In this document: positions 33,162 through 36,100 of the stretch, one piece after another
How the letters are laid out: the number at the start of each line of letters is the position of its first letter
How positions within the stretch are numbered: position 1 is the stretch's first letter
Origin: Escherichia coli
GTDB lineage: Bacteria > Pseudomonadota > Gammaproteobacteria > Enterobacterales > Enterobacteriaceae
Length of the DNA stretch: 64,000 nt
Assembly (NCBI RefSeq): GCF_003334335.1
Contig: NZ_QOWQ01000009.1
Direction: 5' to 3' (one strand)
Program-made: the position numbers

Positions 33162-36100
33162 TAGCAATGCGAATATTTGTCTACGGCAGTTTACGCCACA
33201 AACAAGGCAACAGTCACTGGATGACCAATGCCCAGTTACTGGGCGATTTCAGTATCGATAACTACCAGTTGTATAGCCTGGGCCACTATCCAGGCGCAGT
33301 TCCGGGGAACGGAACAGTACACGGTGAAGTTTATCGTATTGACAACGCCACGCTGGCCGAACTTGATGCCTTGCGCACCAGGGGCGGTGAATACGCGCGC
33401 CAGTTGATTCAGACGCCGTACGGGAGTGCATGGATGTACGTTTATCAACGACCCGTCGATGGATTAAAGCTAATTGAAAGCGGCGACTGGTTAGACAGGG
33501 ATAAGTAATAATAAAAGCACGCCACCTTCGGGTGGCGTTGTTTTATGCGATGTATCTCGCGATTTTTTTTTGTAACTTTTCCATCTTTTGCTTTTCTCTC
33601 CGAGCCGCTTTCCATATCTGCAATCGCATAAAAAACTCTGCTGGCGTTCACAAATGTGCAGGGGTAAAACGGGGGCACGCTTTGAACGGTGAGTATGAGT
33701 GAGGTCGGCTAACTTCCAGCAAGTGGCTATGAACAGCAAAATGGTGGTCGGGTTTGCTTGTTCTTACCGTTCAAGCCTTGCAACCGCTGAGAATAATGAT
33801 GGTGGAATAGAGAGTTTATTTATCGCGGGCATAAAAAAACCCTTACTAACCGAAGCCCGGCGTTCAGGGTTATTGCGCTAGAAGAACTTATTTATTCTTT
33901 GCGCGCTCGAAGGAAGCAACGATTTCAGCTTTAGCGGCTTCTGCGTTTTCCCAACCTTCAACTTTCACCCACTTGCCTTTTTCGAGGTCTTTGTAGTGCT
34001 CGAAGAAGTGAGCGATCTGCGCTTTCAGCAGCTCTGGCAGATCGTTAACGTCTTTAATGTGATCGTATTCTTTGCTCAGCTTTGTGTGCGGAACAGCAAT
34101 CAGTTTCGCATCTTCACCGGCTTCGTCGGTCATTTTCAGAACGCCAACCGGACGGCAACGGATCACAGAACCCGGCTGCAGCGGGTACGGAGTCGGGACC
34201 AGTACGTCAACCGGGTCACCGTCCAGAGACAGGGTGTGGTTGATGTAACCGTAGTTGCACGGATAGAACATCGCGGTGGACATGAAGCGGTCAACGAACA
34301 GTGCGCCGCTCTCTTTGTCGATTTCGTATTTGATCGGATCTGCGTTAGCCGGGATCTCAATAACAACGTAGATGTCTTCCGGCAGATCTTTACCCGCAGG
34401 GACGTTGAGTAAGCTCATGTCTGTTTCCTTTAAAAATATGTGGCAAACAAGTGCCGAGTATTATAGCCAACTCGCGCCGAATGTCTTCGCTTGTTTTCGT
34501 CTTCATTTTCCTTTTTCGCCAATTTTAAGACGGTATACAGAGCAGGAAAATCCATAACCGTAGCCGCATTTTTCATAGTGAGATGAAAGCGATTACAAAC
34601 TTGTGATTAACGTTTTATTTACTTCTTTGAAGTGTGATGTAACGCAATCCGTTACATAACGAATTGTCTATAGTTTTTTCGCGAACATCTTTTCACCAAT
34701 AATAATTACCCCGACGAGGACAACCCTATGTGGAAACGCTTACTTGTAGTCTCTGCAGTCTCGGCAGCCATGTCGTCTATGGCGTTGGCCGCTCCATTAA
34801 CCGTAGGATTTTCGCAGGTCGGATCGGAATCTGGCTGGCGCGCCGCAGAAACCAATGTGGCGAAAAGTGAGGCCGAAAAACGCGGAATTACGCTGAAAAT
34901 TGCCGATGGTCAGCAAAAGCAGGAAAACCAGATTAAAGCGGTACGTTCCTTCGTCGCGCAAGGGGTGGATGCGATCTTTATCGCTCCGGTGGTTGCGACT
35001 GGTTGGGAACCGGTATTAAAAGAGGCGAAAGATGCCGAAATCCCGGTCTTCTTGCTCGATCGTTCTATTGATGTGAAAGACAAATCTCTCTATATGACCA
35101 CCGTCACTGCCGACAACATTCTCGAAGGCAAGTTGATTGGTGACTGGCTGGTAAAAGAAGTGAATGGCAAACCATGCAACGTGGTGGAGCTGCAGGGCAC
35201 TGTTGGGGCCAGCGTCGCCATTGACCGTAAGAAAGGCTTTGCCGAAGCCATTAAGAATGCGCCAAATATCAAAATTATCCGCTCGCAGTCAGGTGACTTC
35301 ACCCGCAGTAAAGGCAAAGAAGTCATGGAGAGCTTTATCAAAGCGGAAAACAACGGCAAAAACATCTGCATGGTTTACGCCCATAACGACGACATGGTGA
35401 TTGGTGCAATTCAGGCAATTAAAGAAGCGGGCCTGAAACCAGGCAAAGATATTCTGACAGGTTCTATCGACGGCGTACCGGATATCTACAAAGCGATGAT
35501 TGATGGCGAAGCGAACGCCAGTGTTGAACTGACGCCGAATATGGCAGGTCCCGCCTTCGACGCGCTGGAGAAATACAAAAAAGACGGCACCATGCCTGAA
35601 AAGCTGACGCTGACCAAATCCACCCTTTATCTGCCTGATACCGCAAAAGAAGAGTTAGAGAAGAAGAAAAATATGGGGTATTGAGGGTTGCTATGCCTGA
35701 TGCCGATTCGTAGGCCGGATAAGGCGCTCGCGCCGCATCCGGCGGTGGTGCGCTGAAGCCTGATGCGACGCTTACCGCGTCTTATCATGCCTACTGGGAG
35801 CACGCTTTACACCGGGGGAAACCATGACGACTAACCAACACCAGGAGATCCTCCGCACCGAAGGATTAAGTAAATTTTTCCCCGGCGTCAAAGCGTTAGA
35901 CAACGTTGATTTCAGCCTGCGCCGCGGCGAAATCATGGCGCTGCTCGGTGAAAACGGGGCAGGAAAATCAACGCTAATCAAAGCATTAACTGGTGTATAC
36001 CACGCCGATCGCGGCACCATCTGGCTGGAAGGCCAGGCTATCTCACCGAAAAATACCGCCCATGCACAACAACTCGGTATCGGCACCGTCTATCAGGAAG

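What the first reader, a model, noticed from the sequence alone, without database searches (positions are those of the whole stretch)
33509..33887. No chpS-chpB toxin-antitoxin genes between ytfP and ppa
In K-12, as I recall, the chpS-chpB (chpBIK) module sits between ytfP and ppa. Here the 379-bp interval holds only the ytfP terminator and non-coding sequence. This marks a strain-level difference in toxin-antitoxin content.
Basis: partly seen in the sequence, partly recalled or inferred. Interest (0 to 1): 0.4.

Follow-up and report, generated by a model that had tools for sequence, protein, structure and literature searches.

The report
Old chpSB-less allele with chpB relic
This E. coli lacks the chpS-chpB toxin-antitoxin genes that K-12 has between ytfP and ppa, but the gap still holds a decayed 125-base scrap of the toxin gene; this is a common, already published variant shared by about 43% of sequenced E. 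coli, so it is ordinary.

Summary
Window 33509-33887 is exactly the ytfP-ppa intergenic gap and has no chpS or chpB gene. K-12-type genomes carry chpS-chpB there. The gap is not featureless, though. Bases 33681-33805 are a decayed relic of chpB codons 7-48 (73% identity, 4 indels, an in-frame stop, changes spread evenly over codon positions). The relic is joined to the last codons of chpB by a 201-bp deletion between two TGGTGG repeats. On the left, 312 bp of K-12 sequence are missing: the region upstream of chpS, all of chpS and chpB codons 1-6.

This is not a strain peculiarity. Of 5426 complete E. coli genomes, 3100 carry chpSB and 2324 carry this relic allele; 188 of the latter also have esiB inserted. 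Almost none has both. The same relic with the same junctions is in the E. albertii type strain, so the loss is old.

The three states of the locus (chpBS, esiB, neither) were published by Pastorello et al. 2013. Only the relic and its age add to that. A hairpin in the relic is inherited from chpB mRNA, and evidence that it is maintained is weak. Verdict: already known, low interest.

The parts
33167..33508 (+). ytfP (gamma-glutamylcyclotransferase family protein), the left flank of the site
   Evidence: ORF of 113 aa. RefSeq annotation of identical loci.
33519..33545 (.). ytfP terminator hairpin (ACGCCACC-TTCG-GGTGGCGT) with T-tract, predicted on both strands. This is the single copy of the short repeat that flanks esiB on both sides in CFT073-type strains.
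   Evidence: Terminator scan. Fold -24.5 kcal/mol, z -4.0. Duplicated on either side of esiB in L002. The repeat is described in PMC3735183.
33546..33570 (+). Second small hairpin followed by T9
   Evidence: Terminator scan. A homologous hairpin exists in K-12.
33571..33671 (.). Spacer homologous to the K-12 sequence that lies upstream of chpS (L001 about 1004-1104)
   Evidence: Alignment with K-12 and CFT073. 88% identical to E. albertii.
33672..33680 (.). Left deletion junction. The 9 nt GGGGCACGC stand where K-12 has 312 bp (L001 1105-1416: the region upstream of chpS, chpS, and chpB codons 1-6).
   Evidence: Junction comparison. The origin of the 9 nt is uncertain; they may be a residue of K-12 GTAGCACCG.
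33681..33805 (+). chpB pseudogene relic, codons 7-48
   Evidence: Aligns to L001 1417-1543 with 94/128 identical, 4 indels and a stop codon. Substitutions fall 10/9/11 over codon positions 1/2/3. Closest to Escherichia chpB in the NJ tree.
33800..33813 (+). Right deletion junction and former chpB 3' end (TGGTGGAATAG...). TGGTGG is the 6-nt microhomology between chpB codons 47-48 and the last codons, and it brackets a 201-bp in-frame deletion.
   Evidence: Matching blocks: window 33800-33805 equals both L001 1538-1543 and L001 1739-1744; window 33800-33809 equals L001 1739-1748.
33814..33887 (.). Former chpB-ppa spacer, nearly identical to K-12. It contains the ppa terminator (hairpin AACCCU...AGGGUU plus U7) at 33831-33871 on the - strand.
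   Evidence: Alignment. The fold shows the hairpin followed by a U-run, although its z-score is not significant.
33888..34418 (-). ppa (inorganic diphosphatase), the right flank of the site
   Evidence: ORF of 176 aa. RefSeq annotation.

Best explanation
The interval is the chpSB-less allele of the ytfP-ppa intergenic site. It is a dead toxin-antitoxin locus, not an empty site. An Escherichia-type chpS-chpB module once sat here and was destroyed by two deletions. One removed about 312 bp: the region upstream of chpS, all of chpS, and the first six codons of chpB. The other was a 201-bp in-frame deletion inside chpB between two TGGTGG direct repeats, which fits replication slippage or microhomology-mediated deletion. 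What survives is 125 nt of chpB (codons 7-48), which has since drifted neutrally to 73% identity. It lies between the ytfP terminator and the ppa terminator, both intact. The allele is old. It is shared with identical junctions by E. coli lineages and by E. albertii, and it coexists in the genus with the intact allele. The two most likely swap by homologous recombination through the conserved ytfP and ppa flanks. In some B2 strains esiB was later inserted into this allele at the ytfP terminator repeat. Shown here: the homology, the junctions, the neutral substitution pattern, the census and the sharing across species. Inferred: the order of the two deletions (the toxin must have been disabled no later than the antitoxin was lost), the slippage mechanism, and recombination as the way the alleles spread. 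The practical consequence is that this strain has no ChpB endoribonuclease and no ChpS antitoxin.
For: Relic homology:
- blastn E 9e-14.
- 94/128 identical with 4 indels and a stop, starting at chpB codon 7 in phase 0.

Neutral decay:
- Substitutions fall 10/9/11 over codon positions.
- 50% amino-acid identity over 28 residues.

Junctions:
- TGGTGG occurs at both ends of the 201-bp deletion.
- The flanks are 94-97% identical to K-12.

Census:
- 3100 genomes have chpSB.
- 2324 have the relic at 80% identity or more.
- 188 have esiB.
- There are 5408 places in 5406 records, so the alleles are mutually exclusive.

Single old origin:
- 159 nt align without gaps in E. albertii (87%), in Escherichia SCPM-O-B-8794 (96%) and, with one 1-nt indel, in CFT073 (92%).
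- The relics form one clade, sister to Escherichia chpB. They are 47-58% identical to chpB of other genera, against 65-77% for intact Escherichia chpB.

No sign of function:
- The overlapping 60-aa ORF is broken in the B2 allele and differs at 13 of 60 residues in E. albertii.
- There is no Rfam family above chance and no promoter-like site.
- RefSeq annotates nothing there.

Prior publication:
- PMC3735183 reports the three states of the locus.
Against: - The relic is more similar between E. coli and E. albertii (87%) than tamB four-fold sites are (68%). This could mean constraint. However, ytfP and ppa four-fold sites are also 87%, and the whole ytfP-ppa block is locally less diverged, which fits inter-species recombination.
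- The chpB-derived hairpin is more stable in the relic than in most simulated random decays.
- The 9-nt filler at the left junction is unexplained.
Confidence: 0.9

Rival explanations
1. Clean empty site: this lineage never had chpSB, and K-12 gained it by insertion into a site like this one.
For: Truly short ytfP-ppa gaps of 100-170 bp with no chpSB exist in several Citrobacter, Enterobacter and Salmonella genomes. An insertion-free ancestral state therefore exists somewhere in the family.
Against: The window's gap contains 125 nt homologous to the interior of chpB plus the chpB 3' end, in the syntenic position and orientation.
Confidence: 0.02
2. Recent strain-specific deletion of a K-12-like chpSB.
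For: The flanks are 94-97% identical to K-12.
Against: The relic is only 73% identical to every Escherichia chpB. It is identical or nearly so in 1613 genomes and is present in 2324. It is shared with E. albertii with the same junctions.
Confidence: 0.02
3. The relic has been co-opted as a structured RNA or DNA element, for example an insulator or stabiliser hairpin between the convergent genes ytfP and ppa, and is kept by selection.
For: - The + strand folds into a hairpin of about 36 bp, rich in G-U pairs: -47.9 kcal/mol, z -2.9. The - strand gives z -1.0.
- Simulated random decay of the K-12 hairpin reaches the observed stability in only 3.2% of runs (transition/transversion ratio matched) or 0.2% of runs (substitution spectrum matched).
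- The relic is less diverged between species than tamB four-fold sites.
Against: - The hairpin is inherited: intact K-12 chpB mRNA folds the same way (-53 kcal/mol, z -2.5).
- Within the relic clade, stem changes are 4 pair-preserving against 4 pair-breaking, with no compensatory double change.
- The E. albertii copy has z +0.14.
- Enrichment of changes at unpaired sites is not significant (p 0.13).
- No promoter-like site was found, and two terminators lie upstream.
- The simulation test was post hoc and uses K-12 as a stand-in for the ancestor.
Confidence: 0.06
4. The relic did not decay in place. It is a fragment of a distant chpB homologue brought in by horizontal transfer.
For: Its 27% divergence from all sampled Escherichia chpB genes contrasts with the 3-6% divergence of the flanks.
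Against: - It is nearer to Escherichia chpB (70-71%) than to any other genus sampled (47-58%). The extra distance lies on its own branch.
- Its position, orientation and 3' end (chpB stop plus spacer) are syntenic with K-12.
- The codon-position pattern is neutral rather than that of a diverged functional gene.
Confidence: 0.04

Closest known systems
chpS-chpB (chpBIK) type II toxin-antitoxin locus of E. coli K-12. ChpB is a MazF/PemK-family endoribonuclease and ChpS an AbrB-type antitoxin.
   Same: Same chromosomal site between ytfP and ppa, same orientation, same downstream spacer and ppa terminator. 125 nt are homologous to chpB codons 7-48.
   Different: No chpS. No region upstream of chpS. 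chpB lacks codons 1-6 and 49-115 and carries frameshifts and a stop, so no protein can be made.
The three-state esiB / chpBS / neither locus described by Pastorello et al. 2013 (mBio, PMC3735183)
   Same: The window is their third state, with esiB and chpBS both absent and a single copy of the short repeat. Frequencies are of the same order: 53/15/32% in 47 genomes there, against 57/3.5/39% in 5426 genomes here.
   Different: The passages read from that paper do not mention a chpB relic in the 'neither' and esiB states, nor its presence in E. albertii. Only the passages containing the search terms were read.
Decay of chromosomal toxin-antitoxin systems within E. coli, for example ccdO157 (Mine et al. 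2009, Genetics; cited from my own knowledge, not read here)
   Same: A chromosomal type II module that is intact in some strains and degraded in others at a fixed intergenic site.
   Different: Here there is one old inactivation, shared across species, rather than many independent recent ones.

Membership tests
Functional chpS-chpB (MazEF-like type II toxin-antitoxin) module | Intact toxin ORF of about 116 aa of the MazF/PemK family | tested here: not met
   Only codons 7-48 remain, with 4 indels and a stop. No other ChpB-like ORF is in the 64-kb window.
Functional chpS-chpB (MazEF-like type II toxin-antitoxin) module | Antitoxin gene directly upstream, overlapping the toxin start | tested here: not met
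   No ChpS match in the interval by tblastn (best E 2.1, elsewhere in the window). 312 bp of K-12 sequence including chpS are missing.
Functional chpS-chpB (MazEF-like type II toxin-antitoxin) module | Promoter and operator upstream of the antitoxin | tested here: inconclusive
   The K-12 sequence between L001 1105 and the chpS start is deleted, and no promoter-like site is in the window interval. The simple scan did not detect a + strand promoter in K-12 either, so the promoter position itself was not verified.
chpB pseudogene relic (unitary pseudogene) | Significant homology to the parent gene at the syntenic position and in the same orientation | tested here: met
   blastn E 9e-14. The match lies between the same flanking sequences as in K-12.
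chpB pseudogene relic (unitary pseudogene) | Disrupted reading frame and truncation | tested here: met
   Four 1-nt indels, a stop and two deletions.
chpB pseudogene relic (unitary pseudogene) | Neutral substitution pattern | tested here: met
   Substitutions fall 10/9/11 over codon positions (chi-square p 0.90). Within the relic clade, stem changes are 4 kept against 4 broken.
Rfam RNA families | Match at the gathering threshold | tested here: not met
   The only hit is a sub-threshold S15 leader match (16.8 bits against a threshold of 39.5, E 0.61), and it lies inside ppa.

The most novel reading that the evidence does not exclude
The intact and dead chpSB alleles have coexisted in the genus Escherichia since about the time of the E. 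coli / E. albertii split, as a long-lived presence/absence polymorphism of a toxin-antitoxin module that crosses species. In addition, the surviving 125-nt piece is kept because its chpB-derived hairpin serves some function between the convergent genes ytfP and ppa.
Probability: 0.07. Interest if true: 0.4.

Novelty: already known. Interest (0 to 1): 0.12.

Why it matters
There is little practical consequence. The strain lacks the ChpB RNase, as about 43% of sequenced E. coli do, E. coli B laboratory strains among them. That is worth knowing when results on persistence or stress from K-12 toxin-antitoxin deletion strains are carried over to other strains. The modest addition here is that the 'neither' state reported in 2013 is a dead chpSB locus with a single old origin, shared with E. 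albertii. chpSB is therefore a case of loss followed by long coexistence of the two alleles, not of recent gain. It also adds to the picture of the ytfP-ppa gap as a recurrent cargo site across Enterobacteriaceae.

Tried and rejected
- **MAFFT alignment.** A global alignment of the three intergenic regions placed the relic against chpS. A local pairwise alignment corrected this.
- **Rfam.** A scan at permissive E-values found only a chance S15-leader hit inside ppa.
- **Promoter scan.** Nothing was found in the interval. The same scan also missed any + strand chpS promoter in K-12, so it says little about promoter loss.
- **The 60-aa ORF at 33699-33881.** It is frameshifted in the B2 allele, it loses its stop in two others, and its amino-acid changes look neutral. 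Rejected as a gene.
- **Hairpin as a selected RNA.**
  - It is inherited from chpB mRNA.
  - The relics show no compensatory changes.
  - Covariation among 11 intact chpB genes is not significant on the robust measures: 5 pairs changed on both sides against 3.6 expected, reached in 117 of 500 shuffles.
  - The simulation result (p 0.03 / 0.002) is kept only as a weak, post hoc lead.
- **Constraint on the relic, judged from cross-species identity.** This could not be separated from a local recombination tract covering ytfP to ppa.
- **Literature.** Searches for chpB with albertii, pseudogene or phylogroup found no description of the relic.

Full report
**1. The observation**

The window carries tamB (29385-33164, +), ytfP (33167-33508, +), a 379-bp gap (33509-33887), ppa (33888-34418, -) and ytfQ (34728-35684, +).

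A K-12 derivative (MFDpir, locus L001) has ytfP, chpS, chpB and ppa in that order. Ramisetty et al. 2016 tabulate ytfP, 211 bp, chpS-chpB, 79 bp, ppa (PMC5120126).

tblastn of K-12 ChpS and ChpB against all 64 kb finds no intact copy and nothing for ChpS.

**2. What is in the gap**

blastn of ytfP-to-ppa from the window against K-12 gives three pieces:
- The left flank, 505 nt at 94.3% identity.
- The right flank, 621 nt at 97.4% identity.
- Unexpectedly, a 127-nt match at 72% (E 9e-14) to the interior of chpB.

A local alignment places window 33681-33805 on L001 1417-1543. That is chpB codons 7-48, starting in phase 0, with 94/128 identical, four 1-nt indels and an in-frame stop.

The 30 substitutions fall 10/9/11 on codon positions 1/2/3. 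Amino-acid identity is only 50% over the one stretch tblastn can follow. This is neutral, pseudogene-type decay, not a diverged working gene.

The right junction is clean. TGGTGG occurs in K-12 both at chpB codons 47-48 (L001 1538-1543) and at the last codons (1739-1744). The window has one copy (33800-33805), followed by AATAG and the unchanged chpB-ppa spacer. This is a 201-bp in-frame deletion between 6-nt direct repeats.

At the left junction, 312 bp of K-12 are replaced by 9 nt, GGGGCACGC (33672-33680). The missing K-12 sequence is L001 1105-1416: the sequence just upstream of chpS, chpS itself, and chpB codons 1-6.

The rest of the gap consists of:
- The ytfP terminator hairpin (33519-33545).
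- A second small hairpin with T9 (33546-33570).
- A 101-bp spacer shared with K-12 (33571-33671).
- The ppa terminator on the minus strand (33831-33871).

Other checks found nothing. There is no Rfam family above chance and no promoter-like site. RefSeq annotates nothing over the relic in any genome listed. The 60-aa ORF that overlaps the relic is frameshifted in the CFT073 allele and differs at 13 of 60 residues in E. albertii.

**3. How common it is**

Counts among 5426 complete E. coli genomes:

| State | Genomes | Source |
|---|---|---|
| K-12-type chpSB DNA | 3100 (3098 full length) | |
| Relic at 80% identity or more | 2324 | |
| Relic query hits only chpB, at about 74% | 3082 | |
| esiB | 188 | |

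- The 2324 relic genomes break down as 1613 at 99% or more, 56 at 95-99%, 652 at 90-95% and 3 at 80-90%.
- There are 5408 places in 5406 records for the relic query and 3101 places in 3100 records for the chpSB query. The two alleles are therefore mutually exclusive and single-copy.
- In CFT073, esiB sits between ytfP and the same relic-bearing interval. It is bracketed by two copies of the ytfP terminator hairpin.
- The window matches many genomes at 100% over 24 kb, from pig, poultry, human and environmental isolates. C41(DE3), an E. coli B derivative, has the identical relic.
- Both alleles occur within lineages I take, from my own knowledge, to be phylogroup A (K-12 has chpSB, E. coli B the relic) and B2 (an ST131 strain has chpSB at 99.8% to K-12; CFT073 and APEC O2:K1 have the relic). 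This points to exchange by recombination rather than clade-wise inheritance. I did not map the states on a tree.

**4. Prior knowledge**

Pastorello et al. 2013 (mBio, PMC3735183) described this locus. Either esiB or chpBS lies between ytfP and ppa, or both are absent. [quoted passage not shown]

The window is their third state. The passages I read do not mention a chpB relic, and literature searches found no description of one.

**5. Age and origin**

YtfP was used to fetch 80 loci from other species, and these were screened by tblastn.

- Intact chpSB sits at the same place downstream of ytfP in E. whittamii and two unnamed Escherichia species. More diverged copies (63-78% amino-acid identity) occur in Lelliottia, Enterobacter asburiae, Pseudocitrobacter, Kluyvera genomosp. 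1 and an unnamed enterobacterium.
- Faint ChpB or ChpS fragments appear in Citrobacter sedlakii and Enterobacter cloacae DSM 26481.
- The E. albertii type strain and Escherichia SCPM-O-B-8794 have a short gap with the same relic and the same junctions: 159 nt ungapped at 87% and 96% identity.
- In a neighbour-joining tree of codons 7-49, the four relics form one clade, sister to intact Escherichia chpB. They are 70-71% identical to those genes but only 47-58% identical to other genera, against 65-77% for intact Escherichia chpB. The extra divergence therefore lies on the relic's own long branch.

Together these results indicate one old inactivation of an Escherichia-type chpB.

There is a caveat on dating. 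Relic identity between E. coli and E. albertii (87%) equals four-fold-site identity in ytfP and ppa (87%) but exceeds that in tamB (68%). A sliding window shows the whole ytfP-ppa block is locally less diverged than its surroundings in both outgroups. The cross-species sharing may therefore reflect later inter-species recombination of the block, not only common descent.

**6. The hairpin lead**

The relic's + strand folds into a long hairpin rich in G-U pairs (-47.9 kcal/mol, z -2.9). The - strand does not.

The same hairpin exists in intact K-12 chpB mRNA (-53 kcal/mol, z -2.5), so it is inherited.

Simulated random decay of the K-12 hairpin with the observed number of changes reaches the relic's stability in 3.2% of runs (transition/transversion ratio matched) or 0.2% of runs (substitution spectrum matched).

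Four results count against selection:
- Within the relic clade, stem changes are 4 pair-preserving against 4 pair-breaking, with no compensatory pair.
- The E. albertii copy has z +0.14.
- Enrichment of changes at unpaired sites is not significant (p 0.13).
- Covariation among 11 intact chpB genes is not significant on the robust measures.

I treat co-option as a low-probability rival.

**7. Mechanism**

Shown: the homology, both junctions, the neutral decay, allele exclusivity, and the shared junctions across species.

Inferred:
- The TGGTGG deletion arose by slippage or microhomology-mediated joining.
- The toxin was disabled no later than the antitoxin was lost. Otherwise ChpB would have been left without its antitoxin. 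ChpB is known as a mild, bacteriostatic toxin (my own knowledge).
- The two alleles persist and move between lineages by homologous recombination in ytfP and ppa.

**8. Verdict**

The gap is a dead chpSB locus rather than plain non-coding DNA. The polymorphism is common (43% of genomes) and already published. The relic and its age are small additions. Novelty: already known. Interest: about 0.12.

Noticed in passing
L010, L011, L017, L019, L023-L025, L027, L036 (ytfP-ppa gap about 3.4-3.5 kb); L040, L045, L046, L053; L015, L016; L032, L050, L062: The ytfP-ppa gap is a cargo hot spot across Enterobacteriaceae. Citrobacter, Lelliottia and others carry a TonB-dependent receptor plus a YncE beta-propeller. 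Silvania, Enterobacter soli and Pluralibacter carry a methyl-accepting chemotaxis protein. Salmonella arizonae and C. youngae carry a 375-403-aa protein with an Hcp/TssD N-terminal domain and an HExxH-like motif. Three Enterobacter genomes carry three small ORFs (194, 156 and 107 aa); the 194-aa one has no NCBIfam match and the other two were not scanned. Other species have a bare gap of 100-170 bp.
   Followed up: partly
L026 4430-4562 (Citrobacter sedlakii); L032 6100-6168 (Enterobacter cloacae DSM 26481): Weak tblastn fragments of ChpB (residues 63-107, E 1.6e-4) and ChpS (residues 9-31, E 2e-5) lie next to ppa. These may be independent chpSB relics in other genera.
   Followed up: no
L001 1417-1512 (K-12 chpB codons 7-38): Intact chpB mRNA is predicted to form a long hairpin that pairs codons 7-16 with codons 29-38 (-53 kcal/mol, z -2.5). 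81% of cells are paired across 11 intact genes from six genera, but covariation is not significant. It might bear on translation of the toxin.
   Followed up: partly
H1, NZ_CP069571.1 (FDAARGOS_1250), homologous to window 33167-34418: An IS1A-family element is inserted within the otherwise 100% identical ytfP-ppa stretch, giving a fourth state of the site.
   Followed up: no
H88, NZ_CP103710.1 (O25b:H4-ST131): An ST131 strain (phylogroup B2, from my own knowledge) carries chpSB 99.8% identical to K-12, while other B2 strains (CFT073, APEC O2:K1) carry the relic allele. This suggests recent import of the intact module by recombination.
   Followed up: no
H120, NZ_CP116411.1 (HH45) 4261412-4261512: Only 101 bp of K-12-type chpB (100% identical, about codons 7-40) match in this genome. 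They are annotated as a PemK/MazF family toxin. This may be a separate, recent truncation of the intact allele.
   Followed up: no
L068 (SACZ01000200.1, 478-bp contig of 'Prolixibacteraceae bacterium JC049'): A 478-bp contig in a Bacteroidota assembly encodes a YtfP 85% identical to that of E. coli. It is probably enterobacterial contamination of that assembly.
   Followed up: no
L056 4453-4973 (Kluyvera genomosp. 3 YDC799): ppa, which is essential in E. coli (my own knowledge), matches in two overlapping tblastn segments (residues 1-76 and 75-174). This implies a frameshift, most likely a sequencing or assembly error.
   Followed up: no
window 33897-33953 (- strand): A sub-threshold Rfam hit to the ribosomal S15 leader (16.8 bits against a threshold of 39.5, E 0.61) lies inside the 3' end of ppa. 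I judge it to be chance.
   Followed up: no
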